From: Blasia pusilla
Taxonomy: Eukaryota
Direction of reading: 5' to 3'
Assembly: GCA_050084515.1 (NCBI GenBank)
Contig: CM114271.1
Location: 23,560,001 to 23,624,000 of the forward strand
DNA length: 64,000 nt
Under the pieces are notes generated by a model. It did not search any database, was not told the origin of the DNA, and saw only the letters and a program-made list of their open reading frames with translations. Positions within the stretch are counted from its first letter, which is position 1. The number at the start of each line of letters is the position of its first letter. Shown in pieces: positions 1-49,058 of this stretch. The position numbers and the translations under genes are program-made.

Positions 1-462
1 GATCGGTGAGATCTAGTAGAGCGCCTTCGTGAGTAGTGGAGGACAGGCTCAGTAGGTTGAGGATGACCTGCTGAGGCCCCGGGAAACCTGAGAGACCAGG
101 TTTCCCCTTCGTTTCGGCTCATTTGGAGCCATATTGAGCAACTTACTATTTTAGATAAGTACCATTTTGAGTATATGATCGACTTTATATTTTTGGTAAG
201 TGGCCCTTGACCTCCTACATCAGGTCAAGAGCCACGGAGGTGACTTGGGAGAATAGGTTACCATGGAGAGAGCTTGGGAGAGGGGAGGGGTATACCTCAA
301 GGAGAGAGAGCTTGAGAGCTCATTCTCTCTTTGTTGAACCTCTTGGCATGAGGCGGCGAAGTTATGATCCCGTGCCTTGTGAGTGTAACCCAAGCCTCTC
401 ATTAGGAGAGTGGGTTTGGTTTAACATGAGAGAGAGTGCACATCTTTGAGATCTATGGTGTG
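1..462 (+). repeat. Left-terminal repeat 'A' (X subtype) of the DNMT-Gypsy family
   Basis: Closely similar to 41928-42375 and 12642-13097, and to the reverse complement of ~13550-14030. Confidence 0.85.
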
Positions 463-2416
463 AGATGGTGTAGAGAGAGATTGGATCTTACTTTACAAAG
501 AGAGAATGAGAGAAAGAGATAATGAGAGAGTGAGAGAGCTTCATGGAGTCGTCAACCAGTGACGGCAGATGACCGCCGATTATGGTGTTTGAGATTTGAT
601 TTCATATTGCTATGTTGTGATCGATAGCCGCTCGACGACGATCGAGTACCGTGTCGTGACGCCCATAGCCGTAACGCGCCGTCGATTGTCGCGACGTGCC
701 GCTTGTGGCCGCTCCGCACGGTCTCGATCGCGGAGTCGAAGCGTCATTGTGGAGCAGAGTGTGGGTTTATTGTTGATTGAGGAGGGTATGTTTTCGAGAG
801 CCACATCCCACCATCGAGGTCCGTGGCGTTTATAGCCGTTCCGTGCCGCCTGGAATGCTGCACCACTCCGCTGGAATCGCACTGTCTATCGAAGAGTTTT
901 GAGTAGCGTCAGTACGGGAGGAGTATGACTTGCTGATTGGAGGAGTTGTCTCCACGACTAAGTTGGGGTTGAGATTTTTAGTTGTTGAGGAGCGACATCG
1001 ACATGTGTTCAGGTTACCCATTCTGGTCCTTTACCCTGCACACGTGAGGGATTATGGGATTTGGGTAGTTTATTTGGGGATATTGGGTTGTGTGGATGTT
1101 GAGAGCATCATTTATGTATGTGGTTTAGGGGACATAGACCTGTGTGGGATGTCCGGAGTTGAGGGTAGGTTGTCGATGAGATGATAGCCTGGTCAATTTG
1201 CCGCACCACGCCGCTTGTTGCCGCACGTTACACGTCTCGGGGAGGGAGAGTGTAGATTGAGTGCCGCATGTTTGGGATGAGTGATTGATTGAGGGATTAC
1301 TCACGAGATTGAGAGTGATCATATGAGAAGGGCATGAGGGCCATCACGGCGTCCTTTCAGGATTTTGAGGGCGAGGTAGTGGACTTGAGAGTAGCTCTAG
1401 AGGGTTTACCCGGAGTGGTGCGAGCATTGGAGGGTCTCCACGTGAGAGACCACCTCGATCTCCTTCTATGTCGTCTTCAGACGAGAGGGAGCGTGTAGAG
1501 GAGTTTGTGAGCATATCGCCACACATTGTGAGTGGTCCTACTAGTTGGGCGTACGAGATGGTCGATCGGGGTAGAGGACCGCGTAGGCGGCGTTGAGTCA
1601 AGTTACAGGCCGCGTGTGGGGATAGGCAGAGAGGTTTGCACGACATGATTTTTGGGCGTGACAGGGATTTGCGAGAGTTGACAATGGAGTGTCAGTGCGC
1701 ATGATGCTAACGGGTTGTCTACATCTGTTGATGGGAGGATCGACTTGATGCACGAGGAGATGGTTGTGCTTCGAAGGTTATCGTGTCACATGGAGGAGTG
1801 AGTGTTGACGGTGCGTAGGTTGGAGGGCGTGATAAAATTACCCATTCGAGTCCCTTTTCCCGCACTTGTCATGTGTGATTGAGAGAGTTGGGTATCGGGT
1901 AGTAAGCTGGTGCTAGGTGGGTGCACTGATGGTGACGAGTGTAGATTCTTTTCATGTGTAGCATGTTAGTGGATATACGGCGGTTGTTGCGTAGGGGTTT
2001 CATGTATAACCCGAGAGGTTAGGTGAGTGTCGCGAGGTTAGGTGAGTCAGTTGGGAGGCTCATGGTGAGCCCGAGTGTTGAGTGTGCGTGAGGCTGGGTG
2101 TGTCATCACGGGATTGACGTTAGCATAGTTGAGCTAGTGAGGAGTGTGGGAGACTCTCGGTGAGTCTGAGTGCTTGAGCGGGTGAGACAGGGTTGTTATC
2201 ACGGCGTTCTTCCAGGGTTCAGAAGAACAGGGTAGTGCGAGCAGTAGTAGTGGAGTGACACGGAGTGGAGTGAGATATCAAGGAGTTACGAGTGAGGAGC
2301 TACCTTGACATCCATCCGTGGTTGGATCGCCATCACTAGACACTGGGTCTATTGACGAGATCGCAGACGGAGGCAGTATCACTTGGCAAGAGATGGACGA
2401 CATGGGCCATTGAGGC

Positions 2417-4363
2417 ATGCGTCGTTTCTTAGGTGCAATGGGCACCATCGACTTAGATGATTTTATCCATGAGTTTGACACGTGGTGCGACTTCCAAGAG
2501 ATACGGACCCCGACACGATTCAACCCTTTCATGGCATGGAAGGGGTTGTTCCAGCACTTGGAGGGTCCTCCAATGGATGATTACATGGAGTTTCAATCAC
2601 TATATTCAGTAGAGATCGATGCCTGGAGGATGTATTGGGCTCCACGGTATGTGTCCACTAGTGGTGGCGAGGCATATGATGGGATTGTGAGAGGAGAGAG
2701 ACCCACACCATCAGCCCCGAGACTAGATGGAGAGGAGGGCAGTGAGACAGGCGATGTGGCAGAGACCTCTGGTGGTAGAGGGCCACCCAACTTCAGCCCC
2801 ACAATGGAGTTCTTCTAACAGTTGGGGAAGAGCTACCAACTGGGCGTACGCACCAACAAGCTAAAGAGTCTACAGGATTTTCAGCCACGATCGGGTGAGA
2901 GTCTGAGATAGGCATTCACACGCATGAGGAGGCTGATCATTGCTACGTATGGAGTGATTGAGGCGCAGTCAGTCCAGAATTGGTACGGGGTTTTGGACAG
3001 AGAACTACAGAGGAGAGTCCGAGATGCGGTGCTGATTCACACAACAAAGCCCACATTGAAGGTGGTCTTGGAGTTGTCTGAGCGTATTGAACTCAACATG
3101 AGTGAGGAGCTGGTAGTGACCGCTAGATTTTCTCGAGAGTCGACGGGTTCACGAGCAACGGTGACCCCACAGGTGCCACAACAACCACCACTACCACGGG
3201 AGCGGGCTGGTGTGCCCAGAGAGCAAGGCGGGTACCGTGAGCCTATGAGGCAACGACCCGTACCTACATGTGTTGCCCAGCAGGGACCGATGTGGTCTTG
3301 TTGGACGTGTGGAGGGGCCCATAGGCAGAGAGACTCCCCACAGTATGGGAGAGGATCACGAGCGGCTCCGATTGCTCAGGAGCCACAGAGGACGGCCCCA
3401 CCACAGCCCCAATGTGACTATTGCCACAGATATGGTCACACTAGGGATAGATGTTTTGACCTTCACCGAGAGGCACGTCCAGAGGTAGACCGAAGGCCTG
3501 GGGGCGGTCGTCCTAGAGGAGGTCGGGGAGTCCTTTCTGAACGTGGAGGTAGAGGACCACCACCAACTAGAGGAGATGGAGCAGGAGCACCAGAGTCGGC
3601 ACTTCTCTCATGTATTGATCAGTTGGAGTAGAGGATTGCTGCCATGACGATGATGCAGCTTAGGGAAGGCACGGAGCTGCGAGCAGCTAGTGTGACTCCG
3701 GCTTCTATCTCTTACCCTGAACCGGTTGAGGATCTCGTCAGTATGGGGTTTATGTGTAGTGCAACCCAGGTTGACTCGGATGACTCGGGATGCTGCGAGA
3801 GGCACCGAGCCATCGAGAGGTGGAGTTGAGATTGACCCACCAGAGGGGACGATGGGCGGCAAGCCAGGGTTCTACAGTCATTCATATTGTTGGAGGCACT
3901 ACACACACCATCGATGGTGCCTCGACGACCAGTGGTGCCTACAGCTCAGACACCTACGTCGATGTCATGAGGAGTTGGAGTGACAACTCCAATGCCGGCT
4001 CGAGTGGAGTCAGTGTCGACCATAGTGTTGGAGGTGGCCACCAGAGTGAGTTAGACTCCACTATTTTCCGCCATAGAGTTGGCAACGTTGGGAGTTGGAC
4101 CAATTGAGGTGTTCGGGCTGGCCACCACGTTGTCTGAGTGTGGAGGGGTGACTGCTTCTTGTTCAGAAGTAGTTGAGGAGGTGGTGGACTTGTCCTCAGA
4201 GCCGGTGCTTGGGACATTTCCCATAGAGTCATGGCATGCGGCGGCGACGAAGTTGGTAGATATGCCAGCTCGACCGGCCATAGAGCGAGCAGTGGTAACA
4301 CATGGAGTAGTGTTACTAGATAACCGAGCGGAGTATTTTGCTTGGTTAGTCCGACGGGGATAG
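2417..4363 (+). pseudogene. gag: gag of copy 1 (capsid-like N-terminus, two zinc knuckles), interrupted by stops
   Basis: ORFs 2417, 2924, 3644 and 4079 are all in one frame. CWTCGGAH..D and CDYCHRYGHTRDRC knuckles. DDFIHEFDTW...FNPFMAWKGLFQHLEG motif shared with the other family copies. Confidence 0.8.
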
Positions 4364-4369
4364 TATACC

Positions 4370-4760
4370 ACCCGCAGTGCGTCCTACTTGATTCGGGAGC
4401 GCAACCCTTGATGTTAGGGAAGGCGGCGTGTTTAGCGTTGGGGATACGAAAGGCCGACATTGAACCTTGTCCCTTCTAGATACAAACCTCGATTGGGGAC
4501 GTGTCACCCACGCAGTATATGACTCAACAGGAGATAGTTGTCAGAGTCCAGCCAGAGCATGCGACGGATAGTGCTTTGGTGCGCACACGTGCGATTACGA
4601 CACCAGCTGAGTCGTACGATGTGTTGGTGGGGACTACAGTGTTATATCCCCTAGGATCCATTCTTGACTTCTGGGAGGAGACCGTTGCTTATCGGCCAGG
4701 GTGGTGGTTAGGAGACGGGCAGATGATTCAATTACCTGTGCAGTTTGCGGGACGAGATGG
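4370..4760 (+). pseudogene. Aspartic protease domain of copy 1
   Basis: VLLDSGAQPLMLG motif at ~4381 and downstream YDVLVG motif. Confidence 0.75.
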
Positions 4761-5099
4761 TCGATCACGAGGCGAGTCTGTGACCACGTTGGCAGCTTTC
4801 ACAGGTAGTGTTAGCTGGCCATGAGAGTTGTTGGAGGGGAACGCACATGCAGAGGATGTCCCAATAGCGGATAGTCCCACGGAGAGACAGCCCATGGCGG
4901 GTGTCTCTCCCCATGTTGGCGAGACCTCTTCACCATTATGGGGTACGACTCGAGAGCTATAGAGGAGTGCCGACGACCTCGTGAGGCAGGCGTGGAGTCA
5001 TGCTTTTATCCCGGAGCAACAAGAGTCATGTGGCGATTGGGCTCTTGGAGTGGAGACGTTGACCCCACTGGATACCACACCCGTTGTGTGGCAGTGCCT

Positions 5100-6070
5100 A
5101 GAGGAGGGTGTTAGGGTGTTAGATCTCTTCGGAGGGATTAGCACCGGATTGGCTGCAGTATTGCAGGTGGGCATACGGGTGCATCAGTACCTTTATGTGG
5201 AGAGAGATGAGACCGTGTGGCAAGTATCATTACGTCATGTGGCGAGATTGGTCCAGAGGTATCCTAAGTTGTTGCCGATATCTGTAGTACGGGGATATCA
5301 GCATACACTACCCGCCGACATCTCTTTGGTGGGGGCGCAGGATCTGGATAGAGTTGGCACCATTCATTTGGTGATTGTTGGATGGCCATGTCAGGGTCAT
5401 TCATCAGCTGGCCGAGGATTTGGATTGCAAGATCCGAGGTCAGGGATGTTTTGGGAGATGCTGCGAGTAGTACGACACTTGCAAGAGAGTCAAACATGTT
5501 CTCCAACGTACATTTTGGAGAACGTGTCGTTGTTGGGAGACACTCGTGCACGTGTGATGACGAGTGTGCATCAGGGGAGGTCTTGGATGGAACCTGCTGT
5601 GTTGTTAGATGCAGTGAGAGTTGGATCACGTGCCCATCATCCATGACTGTGGTGGACGAATCTGATACCATCAGAGGTACTAAGTCGAGCATACGATGGA
5701 GTCCAGAGAGCACTACATCTCAGAGTGGATGCTATTTTGGGCTCAGGGCGTCAATCTCAGGTGGTGATACGGGATGATAGACCACCGCTGGCCATGGCCA
5801 ATAGAGTGGGGGAGTTGAGGGCAGTCTTACCTACGTTGGTGAGCTTCCTAGCATCCCATGCCTTTCGTCAGGGAGGGCTAGGCATGATTTGGGATGAGGT
5901 GACCGGAGCATTGGAGGAGCCTACAGCATATAAGCGCGCCATGGGGTTGGCTATGGGTACTACCGCGGTGCCAGGGATGACTGAGGCATCCCGGAGATAG
6001 GTGTTGGGGGAGGAGACTGACCTCAACTGTCTCACATGGATAGTCAGCCTAGGTATGGCTGAGCAGAGAT
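5100..6070 (+). pseudogene. C5 cytosine DNA methyltransferase domain (DNMT3/DRM-like) embedded in pol, copy 1
   Basis: Motif I VLDLFGGIS, motif II YVE, motif IV GWPCQGHS, GLQDPRS.MFWEMLRV, motif VI YILENV, motif VIII RAH.P(R)LWWTNL, motif IX-like RAMG. Same reading frame as protease, RT and integrase. Confidence 0.9.
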
Positions 6071-6449
6071 GGATGCGAGTGTCATCCATGCCATCACGTC
6101 CACGAGTTGGACCATTGCCTATAGGGTCTGTACAGGCATTGGCTAGGGGAGAGACGAGGAGAGATAGGCATCCATAGACTTCCTGGGACGTCGTTCGAGC
6201 GGAAAGTGCGAAGGCGGCCAGAGTAGCACATGTTCATTTTTTGGATGTGGAGCATGGTGTAGGAGGTCAGAGTGGAGTGGCTCTTGCGGAGGTGGCTAGG
6301 ATTGCTACATAGCAACCAAAGCCGGAGGTTGCATCCTCTCCAAGGGAGGTCACGATGGAGACTTGGGAGCGTGTGATAGGTTCAAGTTGATAGGAGGAGA
6401 GCAACGGCGAGTTCATAGGTTTCTGAGAGGGCATGTTAGTTGTTTTGCC

Positions 6450-7810
6450 TTTAGTATGAGAGACTTGGGTACGTTGAAGGGTCCCGAGATACGGATTGAG
6501 TTGGCTAGTGATACGCCGATCTTTTGTCGACCCTAGAAGTATTCTGATATGGAGCGAGCCTTGATTCAGATCAAGAGTCAGGACTTGTTGGAGGCAGGAC
6601 TTGTTGGAGGCAGGACTTGTGGAGTTATCACATGGGGAGTATGCATCTGCCACAGTCATGCCGGAAAAGAAGGATATGTATGGCAATTGGACGGATAGGG
6701 AGATGTGTGGAGATTGCCGTCCTATCAACCGACAGACGAGGTCAGATCGGTACGCCATGCCTACTTGTGAGGAGATCTTTGATGCGGTAGGGCATGCAAA
6801 GATCTTCAGTACTTTAGATCTCCGTGCTGGCCATCATCAGCTTCCTATCAAGTTAGAGGATAGGGAGAAGACAACATTCTGGGGGATAGATCGGTTTGGT
6901 AGAGATTGCTTGTATCAATGGCGGTTCTTACCATTTGGGTTGAAGAACGCGCCTGCAGAGTTTTAGAGAGTGATGGATAGGATTCTGGCTGGCTTGGAGT
7001 TTGTACGATGTTACATAGATGATATTCTTATCTTCAGTTCCACGGTTGAGGAGCATGAGCGACATCTAGAGGAGGTGTTTCGGCGATTGCAGTTACATGG
7101 ACTGAAGTAACATCCAGGCAAGTGCAGATTCTTTCAGGAGCAGATTGAGTATTTAGGACACACCACATACCCGAGTGGGTTAGGCGTTCAGCGGATAAAG
7201 GTAGAGGCTATTGCGTAGATTCCACGCCCTACATATGTGAGTCGAGTGCGAGCATTTCTTGGACTGGCGAACTTCTATCGACGGTATGTTAAGGATTTTA
7301 GTGTGATCGCAAAGTCTTTGACCTTGTTGACGAGACTTGATCAGGTTTGGTTGTAGGGAGATGATCGTAAGCGAGCATTTTAGGAGCTCAAGGACAGGTT
7401 GATACCCTCACCCATTTTACAGAGACCGGTTAGGGGTCGCCCATTCCAGTTACATACGGATTGGAGCATGTTGGATCTAGGAGCAGTGCTTACTCAGAGG
7501 GATGACGAGGAGACGGAGTTCGTTGTGGCTTACGCGAGCCGATCGAACAACATTGCAGAGGCGAAGTACAGCTCCTACGAGGGAGAGTGCTTGGCTGCAC
7601 TGTGGGCCGTGACACATTTCAGGTGCTATTTATTCGGAAACCCTTTCACACTTATCACTGATCATCAGCCGTTGAGGTGGTTAATGGAGTCCGACAAGCT
7701 TACGGGAAAGCTTGCTAGGTGGGCTCTATTACTACAGGAGTATAAGTTTGAGGTGGTTCAAAGGCCAAGCCGGCTGAACCAAGATGCGGATGGGTTGAGT
7801 CGTAACCCAT
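6450..7810 (+). pseudogene. pol: Reverse transcriptase and RNase H of copy 1
   Basis: MCGDCRPIN, LDLRAGHHQL, PFGLKNAPAEF, YIDDIL, LHTDWS, YSSYEGECLA, ITDHQPL, DADGLSR; several in-frame stops. Confidence 0.93.
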
Positions 7811-8189
7811 GTCCGAGTCAGAGAAACGATATAGGAGCTCGATAGCATGGAGAGAGTGGTGAGGAGATGGTGCCCGATTGGCATGCATCTACCTATCTTT
7901 GTTGGTTGACTATGGCAGGTCAGCCACATGTGATGACTCCAATGGTGGGGTTGGATGATGAATCTTTGGATCTGGAGGTCAATGAGGAGGCAACATGTGG
8001 TCGTGATATCCATGACGACGTGGAGGTTGTGGAGTTCTTGCGCATTGGCGTCATAACAAGCATAGTGAGTGCTAGGGAGCGGGATCGGATCCTATAGATA
8101 GCTAGGAGGTTCAGGTGGGAGGGGACTCACATTTTGCAGGTATGGGGAGATGGTAGGATACAAGTGGTACCTCATCCTTCCCAACGAGC

Positions 8190-9240
8190 ACGTGAAGTGC
8201 GACATGCCCATGAGGAGTTGGGAGTAAAGCGTACTAACAACTTACTCCAGGTTTAGTATTGGTGGCGCGGCATGCATACTAGGGTACAATAGATTGTGGC
8301 CAGATGTATGGTATGTGACAAAGTGCGAGCATCCTTCAATGCTCCCACTCCGTAGTTACATCCTTTTCCGATTATGGGTTTAGGTTATCGGTAGAGTTTA
8401 GACTTTGCGGGACCTTTGCCATTGACGGGGCGTCATCATAGGTACGTGTTGGTGATGGTGGAGCATTTCTCCAAGTGGATAGAGTTGGTGGCACTACCGG
8501 ACAAGGCGAGCAAGGGAACAGCTTATGTGTTTCTAGATTTTGTGCTTAGTCACTTTGGTGCACCGGCGGAGGTGTTGACTAACCAGGGTACCGAGTTCAG
8601 GGGAGAGTTTAAGGCCTTGTGTGATTAGGCGCTGATAGATCACCGCACCACATCCAGAGATCATCCTGAGGTGGATGGGTTGGCGGAGAGAGTGGTACAG
8701 ACGGTGAAGAGAGGATTCCGCAAGTATGGCTTGCAGCGAGGACAGTTGAGGGAGTGGGACCTACAGTTGCCATGGTTGGCTATGGGTTATCGCTTTAGTC
8801 GGTAGGAATCCTTGGCGTCATTTTCACCGTACTTTTTTCTCTTTGGGAGAGAGCCAGATTTACCTACAGCCATTCGACGTGATATGGCGGAGGTGTTAGA
8901 TCTTGATGATCCAGATGTGTGGGTACAAGCATGTTCTCAAAGGGCGGAGGTTTTTCGTAGAGTTATGCCTATGGCCTTTGAGAACTTAGCTATTGCTCAA
9001 CATAGAGATACATTGAGGTACGCGACCGTTCGTGGAGGAGGTTATTGTCCAGGGATTAGGAGGTTTCAACCTGGAGATTACGTGTATTTACAGCATGCGG
9101 CACCCACGATGCTAGATGCCACTGCAGGGCGCACGATCCTACGTATGCGCGAGGTATTACCGACCAGAGTCCTCATGTTGGAGGGACGGGATGGTATGGT
9201 TTGGAAGGATCATGTGCGCAATTGTGCACCATGTCATCTT
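8190..9240 (+). pseudogene. DDE integrase of copy 1
   Basis: H..LG/WWRGM...C..C zinc-binding region, LDFAGPL, VMVEHFSKW, TNQGTEF, HPEVDGLAER, SPYFFLFGREP. Confidence 0.9.
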
Positions 9241-9297
9241 CCGAACGTAGACAGGACATTGGATCCGAGCTTGGCATTGGTACCTACAAGCTTGAGA

Positions 9298-9440
9298 TGT
9301 ATGTTGTGCGGATCAGCGAGGGGTGCAGCCACCATGTTGGTATGTGATGGTTGTTCTCGAGGGTGGCATATGTCATGTCTGACCCCCCCCCTCTTGATGT
9401 GGTTCCCACGGGACGATGGATGTGTCCGAGATGTGTATAG
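9298..9440 (+). pseudogene. PHD finger at the Pol C-terminus (frameshift in poly-C ~9383-9391)
   Basis: CMLC...MLVCDGCSRGWHMSCLTPPL, continuing after a frameshift as DVVPTGRWMCPRCV* = C4HC3 pattern; stop TAG at 9438-9440. Confidence 0.88.
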
Positions 9441-9516
9441 GGTAGTAGGGCATGTGAGAGAGATGTCATATTTTCTATCTGGAGTTGGGGGGATCCAACT
9501 GCCAGCTATGAGGGCG

Positions 9517-9654
9517 GTTGTGTGATCTCCATGTATATGTATGAGTTGATTTTTGTACATGTGTGGATCGACCCGTGTGTGGGAAAGATCGGTGTTGTGT
9601 GGTGTAGATGTGACCAGCGATGTGTGTTGTGTAGCAATATGTATGCGCATGACA
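9517..9654 (+). repeat. Right-terminal repeat B1 (138 bp)
   Basis: Direct repeat of 10137-10274 (8 transitions by eye); ends GCGCATGACA. Confidence 0.92.
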
Positions 9655-9656
9655 AC

Positions 9657-10274
9657 TGTCACATCTGGGTAGCCGATAGGCCGAGATCTATCTTGGATAG
9701 GGCGTAGGAGCCACCGGACTATCTTGAGTGCAACTTTGTCTCACTGTGTCGGATGAGGTTGAGGATAGGTCCATTGTGTCAGGAACGTTGTTTCTGACAA
9801 CTTTCATATTGGGGTCTCTCATAGCTGGGTGACTTGTTGACCAGGTCACCCGCCCCTGGTAACTTGTGTGCGCAGGTTACCAAGGGGAGGGCTATTTTTA
9901 GGGGAAGAGCCTTTTGGCTCTTCCCAACCCTATATAAGAGAGGAAGATGGTTTTCCTAAGCCATCTTTCTCATGTTGAGCCGTTGGAGCACCTCTCTTGT
10001 ATGTGTGTGAGAAAGGACTAGGGTGCTAACGTCCGGATTTCTTGATAGGATAGGATGGACGAGGCTCGATATGCCGATGTAGATTGAGGAGTGGAGTTTT
10101 AGGCTGGGTGTTGCATTTTTACTACTCTTTCTTTTTGTTGTATGATCTCCATGTATATGTATGAGTTGATTTTTGTACATGTGTGGATCAACCCATGTGT
10201 GGGGAAGATCGGTGTTGTGTGGTGTAGATGTGACCAGTGATGTATGTTGTGCAGCGATATGTATGCGCATGACA
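9657..10274 (+). repeat. LTR-like terminal unit A(Y)-B2, 618 bp
   Basis: Begins TGTCACA, ends CATGACA, has CTATATAAG at 9930-9938; last 138 bp repeat 9517-9654. Confidence 0.85.
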
Positions 10275-10329
10275 GAACACTCTCCCATCCTACCCGCTCA
10301 ATTCCTTAAACCATGAACTTATTGTGATG

Positions 10330-12622: not shown

Positions 12623-13251
12623 TGTCACGACTTTTTAGGATAGATCGAAGAGATTTGATACAGCGCCTTCATGAGTAGAGGGGGACAGGCTCAGGAGGTC
12701 GGGAATGACCTATTGAAGTCTTGGGAAACATGAGAGAGCAGGTTTCCCCTTCGTTACGGCTCATTTGGAGCCATATAGATAAACTTACTATTTCGGGTAA
12801 ATTTTTTTATGTTTGGTAGAGTTGACTTTCCACTTTGGGAAGTGGTCCTTGACCCGCTACAATTGGTCAAGAGCCAAGGAGGTCACCCGCGAGCATAGGT
12901 TACCGAGGAGAGAGCTTGGGAGAGGGAAGAGGGTATACCTCAAAGAGAGAGAGCTTGAGAGCTCATTCTCTCTTTGTTTAACCTCTTGGCACAAGGCGGC
13001 GGAGCTATGGTCCCTTGCCTTGTGAGTGTAACCCAAGCCTCTCATTAGGAGAGTGGGGTTGGTTTGACATTGAGAGAGACATGTGAGAGCTATGGTGTTG
13101 TGAGAGAGATTTAACCTTGATTTATTGGAGATATTTTGGTACTTCTTGTCTCGATATTTGGATGTCATGAGTTAGCATGGGATCGTGCGTGCTTGTGTGT
13201 ATATTTGTCGACAGCGATGTATGTTGTGTAGTGATGTGTATGTGCACGACA
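12623..13251 (+). repeat. Solo terminal unit A(X)-B', 629 bp
   Basis: TGTCACGAC...GTGCACGACA; flanks CATG/CACG (4-bp TSD, one mismatch). First ~475 bp match the left end of copies 1 and 2; last ~93 bp match the right end of copy 2. Confidence 0.88.
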
Positions 13252-13411
13252 CACGTTAATTTGCACCTTGGGAGACTCACAACTTATTAGCGTCGTGTGG
13301 CGCCATTGACTCACCAATGGGACGCACGATCAATTGAATTTTCAAGACTCAATCCAAGTGTCTTTCTTGTAGGTCTCAAGATTGAGGTCTCTTCTCAATC
13401 TAACGAGGAGT

Positions 13412-14030
13412 TTTTGTGCCCATACACATCGCTACACAACATATATCACTGTCATCGAATAAACACACAAGATACCATACTACTCATGGCATCTAAAAAT
13501 CAGAAGGATCGAGCACCAAAATATCTACAATAAATCACAAGCACTCAAATGTCTCACAATGTGCACAAAAAATACATCTCTCTCTCTCATGTCAAACCAA
13601 ATCCACTCTCCTAATAAGAGGCTTGGGTTACTTACAAGACAAGGAGGATAATAGCTCCGTCGCCTCATGCCAACATGTTCAACAAAGAGAGAATGAGCTC
13701 TAACGCTCTCTCTCTCCTTGGGTATACCCCCTTCCCTCTCCCAAGCTCTCTCCATGGTAGTCTATGCTTGGAAGTCATCTCCTTTGCTCTTGACATGATG
13801 TAGTAGGTCAAGGACCACTTCCCAAAATCAAAAGGCAACTCTTCTTCTAACGATAACTTACTTGAAATGGTAAGTTTCTATAGCTCCAAATGAGTCGAAA
13901 CAAAGGAAAACCCTGCTCTCTCAGGTTACCCAAGGTCTCAACAAGTCATCCTCAACCTCCTAAAGCTATCCTCCAATATCATCAAAGGCGCTCTACCAAA
14001 ACTCATCAATCCATCCTAAAAGACGTGATA
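13412..14030 (-). repeat. Second solo terminal unit A(X)-B', inverted
   Basis: Reverse-complement homology to 12623-13251 over its length; flanks GAGT/GAGA (4-bp TSD, one mismatch). Confidence 0.82.
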
Positions 14031-14369
14031 GAGAACTATATGTTGAACTCTATAGCGTTGCCATATCATATCATTCCAAGATGCATCGCATCACTAAGGA
14101 GGATTGAGCCATATTATGATTGAGGTGTTGATGATTTATTTATTTTTTCAGAGGAGTAGCAACCACCTTGTAAGTGTATTTAAGCTATCCATTCTTGTCC
14201 CAATTTTGCAATTTTTGAGGATTTTCCCAAGTTGTTGGGTATATGGGATGTTATGACGTAGACAAGTGTATATTGTTATCATACCATTTCACTTATCCAT
14301 GCTACACATGTACCACATTGTATGAGGGTATATACTAGCATAGACTTAGTTTCCAATTGTGTCGGGATT

Positions 14370-36010: not shown

Positions 36011-36223
36011 CCCTGACTTCGAGTGTTGTCCTCCTCTCGACTTTGCATGAAGTTCCACTCATTTTGCTACCGGGGCAGACGACTCTCCTGGATTGTGCAG
36101 GCCCCCACTCCACACTCTTTTGAACGTCTCCTTATTTTTTTACTTCTTCGAAAAACCTTTTGGCTCACAAGGTTTCTAGGTTTGGGCCTCATCGCCCCCA
36201 ATCCGCTCCGCTAGCTTCAGAAG

Positions 36224-40395: not shown

Positions 40396-40441
40396 CACAT
40401 GTGAGTTTTGGGCAGCGAAGCGTGGTGGAGAAGTGAGCGGG
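39889..40441 (+). repeat. 280-bp tandem duplication
   Basis: 39889-40168 aligns with 40169-40441. Confidence 0.9.
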
Positions 40442-43400
40442 AGGTAAGGCACACAAGGGAATTTATTCACTTACCTTGCTGCTTATGGAGATGTTTGAGG
40501 GATGATTTCTGGGTGACACACATTGGGGATAAGTGCGTTGGTGAGTGCACGGCACTACCACGACTATTGTAGAGAACTTGGTGGGATGGATGTATACCAC
40601 ACTAGTCAGGAGTGACTTATTGTGCGGGCTATTTGCTGAGTGTTGATCTCAAGTGAGATAAGTAGGGGCGTGTCCACAATTTAGGCATTGTCTAGTGCAG
40701 AGATAGTGGCTCCGGAGCGAGTCATAGTAGTTTGCAGGTTTCACCACGGCGCATCCACAGAGTATTGGGGAGCGTGATAGTGGTAGAAATGGTGGAGGAT
40801 TTACACAGAGTGGGCTAGGTATCGAGGATTTCCACACGCGGAACCAACTCAGCCGCGAGTTGTAGTTTCTCCAGAGGTGACATCAACAGATTTTGAGTTA
40901 CGTGAGACGCCACAGAGTGTCGCGAGTGTCGCCACACCGTTGTTGTGGGACATGGATGATCGTGATACATATGGGTCCATGAGGAAACCCTGACGATTCT
41001 CAGGCACGGTGTGAACCATCAAGTCGGATGATTTTATGGAAGAGTTTGATAGTTGGAGCGATGGAGAGAGGATGCGAAACGGACAAGGATTCGACCCTTT
41101 TATTGCGTGGAAGGAACTTTTTCAACATCTAGAGGGTTGCGGGTACCTCGGCCCGCACAGACATGGACTTTGTCTGTGTGCAACCTTGATTACTGTGGAG
41201 TCGAAGTAAGTCCATGTCCATGATTGCTAGTTCCAATGGGGGGATTTTTGGAAATTTTTGTGGGGTTTGTCTCTTGATATGGATGGAGGGGACGATGGTA
41301 TCCTATTGGTGAGTTGTATCTATGCCTAGACCCAAACCAACCGCATGTGTGGGGACTTACGGATCGTCCTGTCGAGGATATAAAATGCCCTTGTTGTCCT
41401 GAATTCTTTGCTCGTTCAAGAATTTGGAACCACTACGTGGCAAAACATCCTAACTTTGACAGATTTCGATGGATGGTTCCTCCATTCAACCATGGATGCT
41501 CTCCAGTGCTTCCCGCATTATCACACCCTCCTAAGTCATGCGAATGGTTGAGGGAGGATCCACCTTGGCAACATCATAGATCTCTCCGAGACCCATTTTC
41601 CCTGCCCAAGGTTATTCCATATGATCCCCTATGCTTTTCGGGATGACCTGCGTTATGTTTTTCTCCTCCCCTTATCTATCTCTCTTTGTGTCTACAACTT
41701 CTCCTTTCAAGATGATGTCTCCGCTATACACAAGAAGGTTGTGGTCCAACTGAGGCATTTTCAAGGAGATGATTGGAAGTTTGTATAGGGCGAGTTTGTG
41801 GCATATGCTAGAGGTAGCACCTCACTTGTTTTCCAGGTGGATGATTTCGTAGCAGCCAGATTGCGATGATGTAGGACACTTGGACGAGGTTTTGAGTACT
41901 CAGAGGCTTGTCACGTCTTTTAGGATAGATCAGTGAGATCTAATAGAGCGCCTTCGTGAGTAGTGGAGGACACGCTCAGTAGGTCGCGGATGACCAGCTG
42001 AGGCCCCACGAAACTTGAGAGAGCAGGTTTCTCCTTCGTTTCGGCTCATTTGGATCCATATTGAGGAACTTACTATTTTAGGTAAGTACCATTTTGAGTA
42101 TATGATCGACTTTCTATTTTTGGTAAGTGGCCCTTGATCTCCTACATGAGGTCAAGAGCCAAGGAGGTGACTTGGGAGAATAGGTTACCATGGAGAGAGC
42201 TTGGGAGAGGGGAGGGGTATACCTCAAGGAGAGAAAGCTTGAGAGCTCATTCTCTCTTTGCATGAGGCGGCGGAGCTATGGTACCTTGCCTTGTGAGTGT
42301 AACCCAAGCCTCTCAATAGGAGAACTGGTTTGGTTTGACATGAGAGAGAGTGCACACCTTTGAGAGCTATGGTGTGAGATGGTGTAGAAAGAGATTGGAT
42401 CTTACTTTACAAAGAGAGAATGAGAGAAAGAGAGAAAGAGAGAATGAGAGAATGAGAGAGTGAGAGAGTGAGAGAGTTTCATGGGGGAGCTCGCTGGTCA
42501 CTCGCTGTTTTTGCAGGTTGAGGACCGTGTTCCCCGTTTAGCGGCTCATGGGAGTGCTCACCGGAGCAAGGGTTGCTTTGATTGTTCTTTGCATTTGCCG
42601 ATCTTTCGTGTGGAAGAGTGGCGCGCGGAGGCGCTGCCCAATTTTTTATAGGGATTGAGTATGGGGGCGGGTTGCTCCATGCTGGTCCTCTCGGGAGCAC
42701 CATGTAGCTTGCTGATTTGTATTTTTACAGGTTTTACATTTTTGTTGGGAGAAATCAGCTCAGAAGCGCTGCCGAATTTTGTGTAGGAGAAAGAGACATT
42801 GAGCTTTACGACAGTCCCCGTCAGTTTTTACTCGAATGTCCGATTCTAAATATTTCTTGACGCTATCGTAGATCGTGAAGTTCTGCAGGTTGTGCAAAAA
42901 ATAGTGCGCAATTTGGAGTTGCGAGCAGAAAGGTATGGTCAATCTTGCAAAACTACCATTGCTAGGCGATTTTTAGGGTTAAATTGTTCAAACCCTAAAC
43001 CAGCCGCCACGCCGGCGGCGGCCGTCGCCGTCATAGTCACCGTCAACGGTCCGCCATCGATGGTAAACCGTCACCATCAACGGTCAACCATCACGATCAG
43101 CGGTCAACCGTCACTGTCAACGGTCCACCGTCCATTGTCCACCCTTTGGGTACCATTGCAGCCATTACGGAGTGGAGGGTCTTCCACGACGTTCGTTGAT
43201 TCCCTGACTTGCTAATTGGAGGAGTTGTCTCCACGATCAAGTTGGGGTCGAGATTTACAGTTGCTAAGGAGCGACATCGACATGTGTTCAGGTTACCCAT
43301 TCTGGTCCTTTATCCTACACGTGTGAGGGATTCTGGGATTTGGGTAGTTTATTTGGGGATATTGGGTGTGTGGATGTTGAGAGCATCATTTATGTATGTG

Positions 43401-43884
43401 GTTTAGGGGACATAGACCTGTGTGGGATGTCCGGAGTTGAGGGTAGGTTGTCGATGAGATGATAGCCTGGTCGATTTGCCGCATCACGCCGCGTGTTGCC
43501 GCACGTTACACGTCTCGGAGAGAGAGACTGTAGATCGAGTGCCGCATGTTTGGGATGAGTGATTGAGGGATTACTCATGAGGTTCAGAGCGATCGGGTGA
43601 GAGGGGCACGAGGGTCATCACGGAGTCCGTTCGGGACTTTGAGAGGCGAGGTGGTGAACCCGAGAGTAGCTCTAGAGGTTTTACGCGGAGTGGCGCAAGG
43701 TTCTGAGGGTCTCCACGTGAGGGACCACCTCGATGTCCTTCTGTGTCATCGTCAGACGAGGGGGAGGGTGTAGAGGAGTTTGTGAGCACATCGCCACACA
43801 TTGTGAGTGGTCCTACCAGTTGGGCGTACGAGATGGACGGACGGGGGGTAGAGGACGCGTAGGTTTTAGTGTGTGAGGCACGAT

Positions 43885-45985
43885 TGAGTTGCACGATTTT
43901 ATAGCAGAGTTTAGGAGTTGATGCAACTCCCAGCGGGTCAGGAACTCTAGAGAGTTCAACCCGTTTACAACATGGAACGGTATGTTCCAACATTTAGAGG
44001 GGGCGCCCATGGACCATTACCATGAGTTCTCTCAGAGATATGCATGTGAGATCGAGGCGTGGAGGCTCTACTATGGCCCACATTATGTGTCATGGACGGA
44101 GCCATTCCCAGATGAAGAGGAGGAGTTAGGAGAGGCTACTGCCTCTTCCACTAGTGACGTTTTAGGAGGGATCACTCGCACGGGAGCAGTTGCACGGTCT
44201 AGTCGGGTTCGTCCCAAGTTCAACCCTGTGGTTGAGTTCTTTGTTGAGTTGAGGGCGAGCTACCAGGGGGTACGGACGAAGAAGTTGCGGAGCATCCAAG
44301 ACTTCCAGAGGCGCCCAGGTGAGAGTTTGCGTGAGGCTTACACTTGCTTGCGCCGGTTGATCAACGTCACTCAGGGGGTGACAGAGGCTCAGACTATCCA
44401 GTCATGGTACGCGATGCTGGATCGGACCCTGCGGACATGGGTGCGGGAGGGGTGCTTGTTATGAACACCTCCCCTACATTGAGAGATGTTCTTAGGACCA
44501 CCGAGAACATTGAGCGCAACATGGAGGAGGAGAGCGTAGCCACCATGGGTCCTCGGCGAGAGTAGTCACGATTGTCTGCACCACCTGTGCAGCAACGTGG
44601 ACTCCGAGATAGGTCGACTATGGCACCACGAGCTTAGGGAGGATACCGGGAGGCCGTGCCACAGAGACATGCGCCTTCATATGCGGCTCAGCAACATCCG
44701 CCTCCTATTACTTGTTGGTCATGTGGTGGAGCCCATCATCAGCGCGATTGCACTCGTCAAGGTCATGGACGTGTGCCTCAGCATGGAGGAGGAGATGGTG
44801 AGGTAGAGTACCACCACCTAGACGCGCCGAGGGACACGCCGGACGTGAGGTTGCGATGGCTGCTCAGATACACCAGCTACAGGAGCAGATTGCCGCTATG
44901 GCATTGAGGTTACCCGATGCCAGATCCGTGGCATCGACATCATATGGAGCAGCCAAAGATCTAGAGGATCCTGGATGGATGTGTGGGGTTGCCCAGATGG
45001 AGGCCGCCGTAGTTCTGACGCGTGGAGCAGCCGCACAGTTGGATCCACAGCGAGGGGAAGCCAGAAGACAGACTAGGCTTCCTCAGTCTTTCACGTCCTC
45101 CGAAGCGATGAGGACCCCATCGATGGATCCTCATCAAAGTTCCTGGAGAGTTGGTGATGTTGTTGGTGTGCAAGCACGGAGGGCGATGGGAGAAGCGAGT
45201 GCGACGACTCCTATTGTTGATGCTCAGGAGGGGCATATGTCGAGCACGTTGTTGGGGGCGGCCACCGTTGTGTACCGCACTCCTTTATTTTCTGCTTCCG
45301 ATGTTATGACGTTGGGGGCTACGCCCGCCGAGGCTTTTCGGCTGGTCGCTTCACTATGTGAGCACGGAGTTGGAGTTTCTGCATCACATTCAGAGGTGAT
45401 TGGAGAGGAGGTGATGGACTAGCCCTTAGAGCGGATGCTCGGGCCGTCCACGTCAGATTCATGGCAGGCTACGGCTGCTAGGATGGCGGAGATGCCCGCT
45501 AGACCCGCGATAGAGCGTGCCATGGCTTCTCCTGGTGTTGTGTTGCGGGATAACCGAGGAGAGGTCTTCCAGTTGGTGAGTCCTGGAGGTAGGGCTTTAA
45601 GTCCGCAGCGCGTCTTGTTGGATTCAGGAGCGCAACCCTTGATGTTGGGGAAAGCGTCATTTAGAGGATTGGGCTTGACGAGAGCCGATGTAGAGCGTTG
45701 TCCATTACGGATATAGACATCCTTGGGTGGAGCGAGTACCATACAGTATCTCACCCGACAGGAGGTCCTGGTGAGGATTCGCCCGAGACATCCTACAGAT
45801 GAGTCCGTGGCGCGCGCCAAGGCGATAGTGACTGATGCAGAGTCCTACGACATCTTGGTTGGTGAAGTAGTGTTATACCCGATGGGGTTTTCCCTGGATT
45901 ACTGGGAGGAGTCGGCCCTACTGGACCAGGATGGCGTCGGTGATGGGCGCCTTAGCTCATTACCCGTTCGATTCACAGTGCGATG
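43885..45985 (+). pseudogene. gag: gag and protease of copy 2
   Basis: FNPFTTWNGMFQHLEGAPMD, FQRRPGESLREAY, CWSCGGAHHQRDC, VLLDSGAQPLMLG, YDILVG. Confidence 0.85.
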
Positions 45986-46329
45986 ATCGAGCAACGGCCG
46001 GGAGAGATGGCGACCTTAGCAAAGATTTAGCAAAGCGGTGCCATCACTTGGCCTAGTGATTTGATTGAGGGACATGTCCATGCAGAGGATACTCCCGTTC
46101 CTGACATTTCTATGGAGAGGAGTGTTATGGTAGCTGCATCATTCCGTGGAGGAGAGGTGCCGTTGTGGGGCTCGGACCGAGGAGCTTCAACGATTGGCGA
46201 GATGAGCACGTCATCACGCGTGGAGCGAGGCGTTTGCACCGAGCGTGGCAGTCGAGGAACTGAGGTAGCAAGGAGTGCTACGATGACACCCTTGGATACC
46301 ACACCCATTGTGTGGTGTACCCCGGAGGA

Positions 46330-47290
46330 GGGTATTTGAGTGTTAGATCTCTTTGGAGGCATAAGCACTGGGTTAGCTACTTTTTTGTAGGCAGGAGTGC
46401 AAGTACAACAGTACCTGTATGTGGAGAGTGATGATGTTGCAAGGCGCGTCTCACTACGACATGTGGCGCAATTACGCCTACGTTTTCCCGACTTATTATC
46501 TGCGTCCGCAGTACAGGGGTTCCAGAGTTCCCTACCAAGGGATATTTTGTTGTTGGGGGCGTAGGACTTAGAGCCGGTAGGGACCATTGATTTGGTCATT
46601 TCCGGTTCGCTATGTCAGGGCCAATCGAGTACTGGACCAGGCAGCGGGTTGGCTGACACTCGGTCCAGGTTGTTTTGGGAGATGTTCAGGGTCTTACGGT
46701 AGTTGCAGGAGCACCTGTCTCGTTCTCTAGCGTACATTCTAGAGAATGTGACGATCTTAGGAGACTCTTGGTCACAGGTGGTGACGAGTGCTCATCAGGT
46801 GCGTGCCTGGATCGGCCTACCAGTGTTCTTGGATGTGGCGAGTGTAGGTTCTAGAGCCCATCGCCCGCGTCTATGGTGGACCAACTTGGTGCCCCATGCG
46901 ATGTTATGGAGGGCGTATGCGAGAGTGGAGCGCCCCTCCCATTTATTAGTGGATTGCATTCTGGATCAGGTCGTCAATCATAGGCAGTGAGGCACGATGA
47001 TCGACCACCGTTGACTGTGGTCAACAGAGTAGGCACGCCGCGGGCAGCCTTGCCCACGTTTGTGAGTTTTCCCGCTTCCTATGCATACAAGGAGGCCTGT
47101 CCTGGCTTGGTTTGGGATGACCAGGTTTAGCGGTTGGTGGAGCCCAACGCCAACGAGAGAGAGCGAGCGATGGGATTTCCCACAGGAGTGACGGCAGTAC
47201 CATCAGTGTCAGAGGCATCACGACGTCATGTCTTGGGTCAGGCGATGGACCAGAACTGCTTGACATGGATCCTCGGCTTGGGAGGAGGTG
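46330..47290 (+). pseudogene. C5 DNA methyltransferase domain of copy 2 (stops; motif IV reads GSLCQ)
   Basis: VLDLFGGISTG, YLYVE, IDLVISGSLCQG, DTRSRLFWEMFRV, YILENV, SRAHRPRLWWTNL, ERERAMGF. Confidence 0.88.
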
Positions 47291-47619
47291 GCGGCGTCGT
47301 ATGAGATCGCGACAGATCACAGCGGTTGCGTTGGTGAGCCCCATGCCTACCGAGACGGTGGAGGCAGTGGCTGGGGGTGAGACCCGAGGAAATCTACGCA
47401 CCAGGGGAGATCAGGAGAGACACCCTTGGACTTCTTGGGATGTTTTGCAAGTACGCAAGGAGATGATAGCCACAAAATCGAGCGTGGTTTCGGGCACTAC
47501 ACGTGGAGGAGATCAGAGTTTAAAGTTGGCTGCAGGAGAGCGGCCGAGTGTTGTTGTTCGAGACGGGGTTGCACCATAGCAACCACTGATACCCGCGCCG
47601 GAGAGTCCTACCGTAGTCA

Positions 47620-49058
47620 CGATGGAGACTTGGGAGCCAGATATGGGCCCTAAGTTGACAGGAGGAGAGCGGCGCCGAATACATCAATTCCTCAGGAGTT
47701 ATAGGAGCTGCTTTGTGTTAAGCATGGAGGATTTGGGTACGCTGAAGGGACCGGGGATCCGCATTGAGTTGTCGAGTGATATGCCGATCTTCCGACGACC
47801 CCTAGGTACTGATGATATGGAGAGGGCTCGATTGAGTAGGAGCCAGGACTTGGTCGGAGCAGGACTAGTGGAGATGTCGCATGGGGAATATGTATCTGCC
47901 ACTGTCATGCCCGCCAAGAAGGATGTGCATGGCAACTGGACGGATAGGCGGATGTGTGGGGATTACCGACCTATCAATCGGCAGACGAAGTCCGATAGGT
48001 ATGCCATGCCCACCCCTGAGGAGATCTTTGATGCGATTGGTCACACAAAGGTCTTTAGGTCATTGGATTTGCGAGCCGGATACCATCAGCTAGCTATCAG
48101 ATTGGAGGACAGGCAGAAGACAGCATTTTGGGGCATCGATCCTCACGGGAAGGATTGTTTGTACCAGTGGTGGTTATTACCATTTGGGTTAAAGAACGCC
48201 CCGACTGAGTTTTAGAGGGTCATGGATAGGATCTTGGCTGGTCTGGATTTTGCTAGGTGTTATATTCATGACATCGTAGTCTTTAGCGCCACGGTTGAGG
48301 AGCATGAGCAACATCTAGAGGAGGTGTTTCGACGATTGCAATTACATGGGCTGAAGCTACATCCAGGCAAGTGGAAGTTCTTCTACGACCAGATTGAGTA
48401 CTTGGGTCATACGATATACCCAGGGGGCCTTGGTGTTCAGCTGACGAAGGTAGAGGCTATCTCACACATTCCACGCCCTACACATGTGAGTCGTGTTCGT
48501 GCATTCATGGGATTGGCGAACTTCTATCGGCGATACGTCAAGGGATTCAGCAAGCCGCTGACCTTGCTGACCAAGGTGGATCACGAGTGGCACTGGGGGG
48601 ATGAGCAGGGGCGGGCATTTCAGTTGCTCAAGGACAGGTTGACGTTCGCATCCATCTTGAGGAGACCGATCAGGGGGGCGTCCTTTCCAGTTGCACACAG
48701 ATTGGAGCATGTTGGGGCGGTGCTCACCCGGCATGATGATGAGGGTAGAGAGTTCGTGGTGGCTTACGCTAGCCGCTCGAACAACGCTGCAGAGGCAAAG
48801 TACAGCTCGTATGAGGGTGAGTGCTTGGCTGGGGTGTGGGTTGTCGCGCATTTCAGGTGTAACTTATTCGGAAACCCCTTTAACATCATCACTGATCATC
48901 AACCACTGAAGTGGTTGATGAAGTCCGACAAGCTTACAGGGAAGCTTGCGAGATGGGCTCTGCTGTTGCAGGAGTATGATTTTCAGGTGGTACATAGACC
49001 TAGGATGCTCAACCACGATGAAGATGGGTTGAGTCGTAACCCATGCCCGAGTCAGTGA
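47620..49058 (+). pseudogene. pol: RT and RNase H of copy 2
   Basis: RMCGDYRPIN, LDLRAGYHQL, PFGLKNAPTEF, YIHDIVV, YSSYEGECLA, TDHQPL, DGLSR. Confidence 0.92.

What the first reader, a model, noticed from the sequence alone, without database searches (positions are those of the whole stretch)
9517..10274. B-AC-A-B junction: split-direct-repeat layout in a Gypsy with a DDE integrase
Seen: 76 bp after the Pol stop comes B1 (138 bp, ending CATGACA), then the dinucleotide AC, then TGTCAC starting a 618-bp LTR-like unit that ends in a second B. There is no polypurine tract directly before the unit. Known: A-ORFs-B-A-B split direct repeats characterise tyrosine-recombinase retroelements (PAT, Ngaro, TOC1), and CA-nn-TG resembles a circle junction. 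Inference: this family uses an internal end-to-end junction as the template for its termini. A1xA2 recombination would give exactly the solo A-B units at 12623 and 13412. Caveats: this A (Y subtype) does not match the X-type A at base 1, and the flanks CAAC/GAAC could be a decayed TSD of an independent insertion.
Basis: partly seen in the sequence, partly recalled or inferred. Interest (0 to 1): 0.82.

Follow-up and report, generated by a model that had tools for sequence, protein, structure and literature searches.

The report
Gypsy retrotransposon with a permuted LTR
This is the tail of a plant and algal jumping gene whose copying signals and integration signals sit in different places, so it probably inserts by cutting a palindrome inside its own terminal repeat instead of using its DNA ends as retroviruses do.

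Summary
The B-AC-A-B layout is real and is the family norm, not a chance insertion. The element is a Ty3/Gypsy-type retrotransposon (gag, protease, C5 methyltransferase, RT, RNase H, DDE integrase, PHD) in what is probably a liverwort. Hundreds of reads of the sister family cross the same B-RC-A joint. It also recurs in 27 of 49 distinct metagenome sites and in four distant contigs, where it is the palindrome GACAGCTGTC; AC is decayed GC.

The layout is already noted in print for KnitGypsy-Dnmt3. The anatomy is new: a G-tract lies before B1, and a Tf1-like self-priming site lies after A1 (13 of 14 ends). So the LTR that reverse transcription would make is B-GC-A, with the TG/CA attachment site inside it. 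The A2/B2 joint varies between sister copies like an end-joining scar.

Best reading (0.62): integrase cuts the internal palindrome, and the two cDNA ends are joined before or after insertion. About 44% of sites are a short A-internal-B form. The expected permuted form is missing (0 of 15) and unexplained. This copy is a decayed X/Y chimera.

The parts
1..495 (+). A1 of the X family (5' end about 19 nt outside the window); ends at a PBS-like site, not at CA, and is not followed by B
   Evidence: 91% to 41928-42451; reads join 491/495 to B at 13121/13124
319..334 (+). predicted RNA 5' end / self-primer, about 30 nt after a TATA-like box at 289
   Evidence: 16-nt Watson-Crick match to 495-510, 0 of 200 control windows reach it; paired in both MFE and centroid folds, z -3.1. 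Start site not measured.
495..510 (+). self-priming primer-binding site directly after A1
496..1587 (+). X-family leader; chimera point at about 1587 where Y-family interior takes over
   Evidence: 885 reads of X17 leave here with letters like element 2 at about 43865; alignment to element 2 stops at 1587
2384..9440 (+). broken gag-pol: gag with zinc knuckles, protease-like motif, C5 DNA methyltransferase, RT, RNase H, integrase, PHD finger; many stops and frameshifts
   Evidence: Pfam DNA_methylase, RT_RNaseH, PHD, RVT_1; integrase and protease motifs read from the translation; 77% to Marchantia, 75% to Calypogeia proteins
9508..9516 (+). decayed polypurine tract (ATGAGGGCG) directly before B1
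   Evidence: family form ends AGGGGGGCG in X reads and in F3 loci; G directly before B1 in 28 of 29 F1 rows
9517..9654 (+). B1, first part of the RT-defined LTR; ends in the CA of the attachment site
9648..9662 (+). internal attachment site CATGACA-AC-TGTCAC; family core is the palindrome GACAGCTGTC
9657..10136 (+). A2 (Y family), TATATAA at 9931
   Evidence: depth 2071 at 10074 against 1073-1209 at three interior places, one interior place 2937
10137..10274 (+). B2, right terminus; the A2/B2 boundary at 10136/10137 is the proposed end-joining scar
12623..13251 (+). solo A-B unit of the X family (B = 13124-13251), flanks CATG/CACG
13412..14030 (-). older solo A-B unit of the X family
41909..49363 (+). 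element 2, X family: A1, PBS, gag-pol cut off after RNase H, last 94 bp of B; TSD GGCT/GGCT

Best explanation
A Ty3/Gypsy-type retrotransposon with a circularly permuted LTR. (1) RNA starts in A1 about 30 nt after the TATA box and ends inside A2 [inferred]. (2) Its 5' end pairs with the site just after A1 and primes the minus strand, as in Tf1 [sequence shown, priming inferred]. (3) The plus strand starts at the G-tract before B1 [tract shown, priming inferred]. (4) Standard strand transfers then give a linear cDNA (B-GC-A)-internal-(B-GC-A) [follows from LTR biology]. (5) The DDE integrase does not use these ends. It nicks after CA on both strands of the internal palindrome GACA^GC^TGTC, which yields ends like 3'-processed retroviral ends, and inserts with a 4-bp TSD [TSD and TG/CA ends shown, cut inferred]. 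(6) The two RT ends are joined by end-joining, either first as a 2-LTR circle or afterwards as a break in the chromosome; this makes the variable A2/B2 joint and the long form A1-internal-B1-GC-A2-B2 [variability shown, cause inferred]. (7) One-LTR circles, double cuts, or repair by annealing give the short form A-internal-B, which lacks a 3' R and should be a dead end [form shown, origin inferred]. The copy at 1-10274 is a decayed long form whose 5' part was later replaced by an X-family 5' end.
For: Junction recurrent: in run X17, five of the 15 joints shown join a B end to an A start (266, 76, 47, 42, 38 reads), with AC or GC then TGTCAC between. 1625 reads show B preceded by a UTR ending in a G-tract. 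Metagenome loci: 27 long, 21 short, 1 deleted of 49 distinct sites (two calls corrected by eye); whole A1..B1-RC-A2-B2 in L054, L057, L062, L065. Spacers GC 11, AC 9, AT 3, GT 2, AA 1 of 26, the set expected from CHG decay of CAGCTG. Perfect palindromes of 10, 10, 20 and 16 bp, 57-109 nt after a G-run, in 4 of 4 further contigs at 42-62% protein identity. Self-primer match of 9-17 nt in 13 of 14 5' ends from four families, controls at most 3 of 200, also in L009, L084, L087. A2/B2 joints in 17 distinct F1 sites: 7 flush, 6 collapsed on a 2-nt overlap, 4 other; the two main types need the maximum 6 changes on the tree. X reads show the same two types, 197 flush and 218 collapsed on 1 nt. L057 and L007 keep bases from the PPT side at the joint. 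DDE residues intact in P0011; no tyrosine recombinase hit. Precedent: HIV-1 and foamy virus integrases cut palindromic LTR-LTR junctions (abstracts of PMC1905944, PMC1180852, PMC4372172).
Against: A symmetrical 2-LTR circle predicts a permuted form A-B-GC-A-internal-B. It was seen in 0 of 15 5' ends (P about 2e-4 if B-only 3' ends were permuted), so an unexplained polarity or a repair bias must be added. No RNA end, cDNA end, circle or cleavage was observed. The trees are star-like with no or few well-supported branches, so 'not inherited' is weakly tested. Direct read proof of the junction is for the X family; for the Y family of this locus it is indirect (depth ratio, one contig ending at 10136), and 2770 joints and 18916 loose ends were not shown. 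TSDs match perfectly in only 2 of 4 long and 2 of 4 short metagenome elements, one more in each class has one mismatch, one in each fails. L036 lacks the self-primer match and none was found in L086. AC outnumbers GT 9 to 2 (p 0.065), so some AC may be inherited. L051 may have a normal PPT-TG start, but its contig ends too soon.
Confidence: 0.62

Rival explanations
1. PAT/Ngaro-like replication: the RNA runs from A1 into B2 and the internal B1-A2 junction is the template that rebuilds the missing ends of a circle, which the DDE integrase then opens.
For: Same A1-ORF-B1-A2-B2 order as PAT, Ngaro, VIPER (passages of PMC6681497); junction fixed and conserved; a directional template could explain why no permuted form is seen.
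Against: It does not need a PPT before B1 or a self-primer after A1, yet both are conserved across unrelated LTR sequences. It predicts an inherited A2/B2 joint, whereas that joint varies between sister copies. No recombinase.
Confidence: 0.15
2. Same priming and same internal attachment site, but reverse transcriptase itself jumps from one cDNA end to the other and so makes A2-B2; no host end-joining is needed, and the branched intermediate favours one junction.
For: Flush or 1-2 nt overlap joints also fit template jumping; would supply the missing polarity.
Against: No direct evidence; joints with deletions (L060, L063) and a 22-nt insert (L007) look like repair.
Confidence: 0.15
3. The short form A-internal-B is the true unit and the long form arises when a solo A-B unit inserts or recombines at its end.
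For: 21 of 49 sites are short; short and long copies have equal terminal branch lengths (0.058 and 0.057, p 0.46).
Against: The short form has no repeated R region for strand transfer. One TSD spans the whole long form in L054 and L062. The spacer is a fixed GC, not a variable TSD.
Confidence: 0.05
4. Locus accident: an independent Y solo LTR landed 2 bp from the end of a truncated element, CAAC/GAAC being a decayed TSD.
For: 3 of 4 flank bases match (about 5% by chance, my arithmetic); A at 9657 does not match A at base 1.
Against: The same junction stands in hundreds of reads and dozens of loci; the left 'TSD' uses the CA of B1; the A mismatch is explained by the chimera at 1587.
Confidence: 0.03

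Closest known systems
KnitGypsy-Dnmt3 of Klebsormidium nitens (de Mendoza et al. 2018, PMC5890265; section 9, passages and supplement search seen)
   Same: Gypsy domains, a C5 methyltransferase in Pol, and repeats 'the same as that of a DIRS retrotransposon' (A-coding-B-A-B). K. nitens proteins are among the hits (53% and 47%).
   Different: In what I saw the paper gives the layout in one legend only: no junction, PPT, PBS, TSD, short form or mechanism. The figure and supplement file 1 could not be seen. I did not confirm that the K. nitens hits are that family.
PAT / Ngaro / VIPER / TATE tyrosine-recombinase retroelements with split direct repeats (PMC6681497, passages; TOC1 recalled)
   Same: Order A1-ORFs-B1-A2-B2; solo A2-B2 remnants (SIRE).
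   Different: DDE integrase, no recombinase, TG/CA ends, 4-bp TSD, PPT and self-primer.
Tf1/sushi and plant Tcn1 self-priming Ty3/Gypsy elements (passages of PMC7175516, PMC6317226)
   Same: RNA 5' end complementary to the site next to the 5' repeat.
   Different: Those have two whole LTRs and a chromodomain; here PHD, and the attachment site is inside the LTR.
Retroviral 2-LTR circle junction cleavage (HIV-1, foamy virus; abstracts of PMC1905944, PMC1180852, PMC4372172)
   Same: A DDE integrase cutting an internal palindromic CA..TG junction.
   Different: There the junction is made by joining the cDNA ends and is a side route. Here it is encoded in the element, and the joined ends lie elsewhere.
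IS3/IS30/IS21 insertion sequences (recalled, no call)
   Same: DDE enzyme acting on abutted ends with a 2-3 bp spacer.
   Different: DNA-only bacterial elements; the junction is made by the transposase each cycle.
Gypsy-7a_cRei of Chlamydomonas (10.1101/2022.06.16.496473 section 17; PMC9940879 legend)
   Same: Gypsy with PHD; left LTR lacks the last 8 bp of the right LTR; active in laboratory strains.

Membership tests
Ty3/Gypsy by coding region | order gag-PR-RT-RH-INT | tested here: met
   (window, L054, L011, P0011, P0022)
Ty3/Gypsy by coding region | DDE integrase triad | tested here: met
   rve hits; D, D, E read in P0011; the window copy has N at the second D
Ty3/Gypsy by coding region | RT tree position against reference clades (REXdb) | not tested
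   no reference set held
canonical LTR retrotransposon structure | TG...CA termini and 4-6 bp TSD | tested here: met
   GGCT, ATGT, ACCT, CCAA, ACTA perfect; two elements fail
canonical LTR retrotransposon structure | two complete LTRs at the termini | tested here: not met
   5' end has A only; 3' end B-RC-A-B or B only
canonical LTR retrotransposon structure | PPT next to the TG of the 3' LTR; PBS next to the CA of the 5' LTR | tested here: not met
   G-tract lies before B1, 57-180 nt from the TG; PBS follows A1, which has no CA att end
DIRS order, PAT/Ngaro | split direct repeats A1-B1-A2-B2 | tested here: met
DIRS order, PAT/Ngaro | tyrosine recombinase ORF | tested here: not met
   no such Pfam hit among stop-to-stop frames of 95 aa or more in element 1, L054, L011, nor in 6 full polyproteins; shorter fragments not scanned
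DIRS order, PAT/Ngaro | no target-site duplication (recalled feature) | tested here: not met
   4-bp TSDs present
Tf1/sushi-type self-priming | RNA 5' end complementary to the PBS | tested here: met
   13 of 14 ends, assuming a start about 30 nt after TATA
Tf1/sushi-type self-priming | RNase H cut that frees the primer; measured start site | not testable with these tools
   no RNA run was laid
Tf1/sushi, Tcn1 chromoviruses | C-terminal chromodomain | tested here: not met
   PHD instead
KnitGypsy-Dnmt3 | C5 methyltransferase in Pol plus DIRS-like repeats | tested here: met
   PF00145 in window, L054, L011; layout
KnitGypsy-Dnmt3 | Dnmt3 clade of the methyltransferase; direct sequence kinship | not tested
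   reference sequences not held

The most novel reading that the evidence does not exclude
A clade of Ty3/Gypsy elements spread from green algae to bryophytes has uncoupled reverse-transcription ends from integration ends: its integrase is a site-specific internal endonuclease for a conserved GACAGCTGTC palindrome, and end-joining of the cDNA ends (a 2-LTR circle or a repaired break) is an obligate step of every productive insertion, while about half of the insertions are repeat-less dead ends.
Probability: 0.5. Interest if true: 0.9.

Novelty: new variant of a known kind. Interest (0 to 1): 0.78.

Why it matters
In the textbook cycle of LTR elements and retroviruses, the primer sites define the DNA ends that integrase uses, and circles are mostly by-products. 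Whether joined-end circles can be real integration precursors has been argued for decades from HIV and foamy virus work. Here the genome copies themselves record such a route, in a family of several hundred to about a thousand copies, and give sharp tests. It offers a structural bridge between Gypsy and the split-repeat DIRS layout without a recombinase. It also matters for annotation: neither form has two whole LTRs with TG..CA, and the short form has no direct repeat, so LTR-finding programs should miss or misbound these elements in bryophyte and algal genomes (inference, not run).

Tried and rejected
No whole genome is held, so no assembly-wide count and no view of the 4 bp before base 1. 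Viral contigs gave no relative with the first alignment and only 3 PHD-only matches with the second, which I did not use. Three look-ups of earlier findings were empty. The REM1 paper is not held; a passage in PMC2774666 describes a reversed, truncated integrase, so I dropped it as a relative. Ten paper searches found the layout only in PMC5890265 and no account of an internal attachment site; subscription journals, Repbase and theses are not searched. The idea that the X LTR is about 1.7 kb long was dropped after reads showed the chimera at 1587. L009, L084 and L087 read internal-PPT-B-GC-A-PBS-leader; collapsed short-read assembly gives the same picture, so they are not counted as circles. 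Hi-C run X20 has ligation chimeras and is used only as a cross-check. Long against short age showed no difference, which neither proves nor excludes later deletion. Rows left out of the trees: same-site duplicates, L068 (no end), and L056 and L060 in the joint tree.

Full report
Observation. The layout is as described: stop codon at 9438-9440, 76 bp, B1 9517-9654, AC, A 9657-10136, B2 10137-10274, with 130 of 138 bases shared between B1 and B2. The junction pattern has one match in the window and none in 100 shuffles. The upstream ORFs are broken but read as gag, protease, C5 DNA methyltransferase, RT, RNase H, integrase and PHD. The nearest named proteins are from Marchantia (77%), Calypogeia (75%), Sphagnum (65%), Klebsormidium (53%) and Chlamydomonadales (41-48%). 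The host is probably a liverwort: the best hits over the whole Argonaute piece are Marchantia and Riccia, with Calypogeia over 63% of it (inference).

Is the junction an accident? No whole genome is held, so I laid four runs on 1-14200. In the whole-genome run X17 single-copy DNA has depth 0.7-1.9 and the element interior about 900-1360, so several hundred to about a thousand copies. Of 15 joints shown (2770 not shown), five join a B end to an A start, with 266, 76, 47, 42 and 38 reads; the letters between begin AC or GC and then TGTCAC. 1625 reads leave the start of the X-type B with a consensus like the UTR before B1, ending in a G-tract. So UTR-B-RC-A is the norm in the X family. For the Y family the proof is indirect: depth 2071 in A against 1073-1209 at three interior places (2937 at a fourth), and one X2 contig that stops fitting at 10136. 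X17 may be the sample of the assembly; that does not harm a copy count but it is not independent. 885 reads leave 1587 with letters like element 2, and the alignment to element 2 ends there. Element 1 is therefore an X 5' end on a Y body. Reverse transcription would have made both A copies alike, so this is a later genomic rearrangement (inference).

Relatives. Of 547 matches in metagenome contigs the best 80 were kept. 67 have a recognisable B from three families unrelated in LTR sequence, here F1, F2, F3; 13 do not, several because the contig ends. After merging same-site duplicates, 49 sites have a flank: 27 long (B-RC-A-B), 21 short (B only), 1 deleted; two script calls (L070, L014) were corrected by eye. 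L054, L057, L062 and L065 hold the entire A1-internal-B1-RC-A2-B2. L003, L004, L020 and L037 hold A-internal-B. TSDs are 4 bp: perfect in L054, L062, L037, L004 and window element 2, one mismatch in L065 and L003, no match in L057 and L020. Spacers at 26 sites are GC 11, AC 9, AT 3, GT 2, AA 1, which is what methylation decay of CAGCTG gives. Four contigs filed under prokaryote bins, evidently eukaryotic (inference), at 62, 62, 42 and 42% identity all carry GACAGCTGTC once, in perfect palindromes of 10, 10, 20 and 16 bp, 57-109 nt after a run of 6-7 G. The two at 42% are probably algal; I did not test this.

The primer sites. It lies before B1: G directly precedes B1 in 28 of 29 F1 rows, and G-tracts precede it in nearly all F2 and F3 rows listed. 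At the other end, the bases just after A1 are complementary over 9-17 nt to a site about 25-35 nt after a TATA-like box in A, in 13 of 14 5' ends from four families; control windows reach the length in at most 3 of 200, and L036 fails. The same holds in L009, L084 and L087, not in L086. In the window the pair is 319-334 with 495-510 and dominates the fold. This is the Tf1 self-priming arrangement (passages of PMC7175516; PMC6317226 predicts it for plant Tcn1 and TAR). By standard LTR biology the cDNA then runs from the base after the PPT to the base before the PBS. Its LTR is B-GC-A, and the TG/CA site lies inside it.

The joint made anew. If so, B2 cannot come from the RNA; A2/B2 must be the two cDNA ends joined. 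In 17 distinct F1 sites this joint is flush in 7, collapsed on a shared AT in 6, and otherwise altered in 4, whereas the B1/A2 spacer is 2 nt by BLAST position in all F1 long sites. On a tree without the joint columns the two main types need 6 changes, the maximum, against a shuffled mean of 4.6; closest pairs differ. The tree has no strongly supported branch, so this is suggestive only. X reads show the same split, 197 flush and 218 collapsed on one base. L057 keeps a G and L007 keeps CG from the PPT side plus an insert.

Mechanism. Integrase keeps D, D, E in an intact relative, and no recombinase domain was found. Nicks after CA on both strands of GACA^GC^TGTC would leave 2-nt 5' overhangs, like processed retroviral ends. 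Retroviral integrases can cut palindromic LTR-LTR junctions (abstracts only: PMC1905944, PMC1180852, PMC4372172). Cutting the upstream site of a joined or later-repaired cDNA gives exactly A1-internal-B1-GC-A2-B2. A one-LTR circle or a double cut gives A-internal-B. Long and short F1 copies are mixed on the tree (9 changes, shuffled mean 9.0) and equally old (0.057 and 0.058, p 0.46).

What does not fit. Cutting the downstream site should give A-B-GC-A-internal-B. None of 15 5' ends has B-RC before it (P about 2e-4 if the B-only ends were this form). One untested way out: insertion of a linear cDNA leaves a break; after an upstream cut it is closed by end-joining (long form), after a downstream cut the two long A copies flank the break and anneal (short form). 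That would give about equal long and short forms and no permuted one, as seen. An RT jump between the ends is another. Nothing here shows an RNA end, a cDNA end, a circle or a cut.

Known or new. PMC5890265 (section 9, passages, supplement search) says in the legend of Fig. 4c that KnitGypsy-Dnmt3 has the repeat structure of a DIRS element with Gypsy domains. The layout is therefore in print. Its figure and supplement file 1 (too large) were not seen and may say more. Gypsy-7a_cRei has a left LTR 8 bp shorter than the right (bioRxiv supplements closed), a lead only. Ten searches found no description of the primer positions, the palindrome, the variable joint or the short form; subscription papers, Repbase and theses are outside the library. 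It works like a self-priming Gypsy in reverse transcription and, probably, like a junction-cutting DDE system in integration. It is not a DIRS-order element (no recombinase, has TSDs) and fails the canonical two-LTR structure.

Verdict. Observation confirmed; first interpretation partly supported; new variant of a known kind; best mechanism 0.62; interest 0.78.

Noticed in passing
window 30846-37145 (-): An ordinary chromovirus-type LTR element (protease, RT, RH, integrase, SH3, chromodomain; 921-bp repeats at 97.6%); its ends as I cut them did not show clean TG..CA or a tRNA PBS.
   Followed up: partly
window about 52200-59101 (-): Multi-exon Argonaute 1-like gene; best full-coverage hits are liverworts.
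   Followed up: partly
window 23255-23707 (-): Exon of a signal peptidase subunit SPC22-like gene.
   Followed up: no
window 4963-6030; L054 6214-6774; L011 6159-7505; P0056: C5 methyltransferase inside Pol before RT in liverwort-like and metagenome copies; in P0056 it lies between RNase H and integrase instead.
   Followed up: partly
L062 9173-9335; L061 2940-3100; L064 7060-7221: F1 B ends in tandem 15-nt units with CACGACA; L062 B2 stops one unit early and still has a perfect TSD, which could be a cut at the look-alike site or later slippage.
   Followed up: no
window reads before 13124; L004, L006, L011: The UTR-PPT of the window's X family is almost identical over 30 nt to that of metagenome family F3 from a lower-GC host, and their B ends are about 75% alike; strong constraint or transfer.
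   Followed up: no
L084 1-127 = 9159-9285; L009; L087: Contigs that read as one-LTR circles (internal-PPT-B-GC-A-PBS-gag); collapsed assembly is the simpler cause.
   Followed up: partly
L084-L087: Eukaryotic retrotransposon contigs inside genomes filed as a cyanobacterium, Halorubrum and a mollicute: likely bin contamination.
   Followed up: no
L051 3521-3741: A 60% GC relative with a G-tract followed by AG-TG, possibly a normal LTR start; contig ends 220 nt later.
   Followed up: no
window 38687-40441: GC-rich array of about 46-nt and 280-nt repeats with open frames on the minus strand.
   Followed up: no
window 49364-50850: Degraded frames after element 2 that read like a LINE-type RT (by eye, no call confirms).
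   Followed up: no
window 11174-11308 and 13259-13394: Inverted match at 72% in the flanks between the units, perhaps another old repeat.
   Followed up: no
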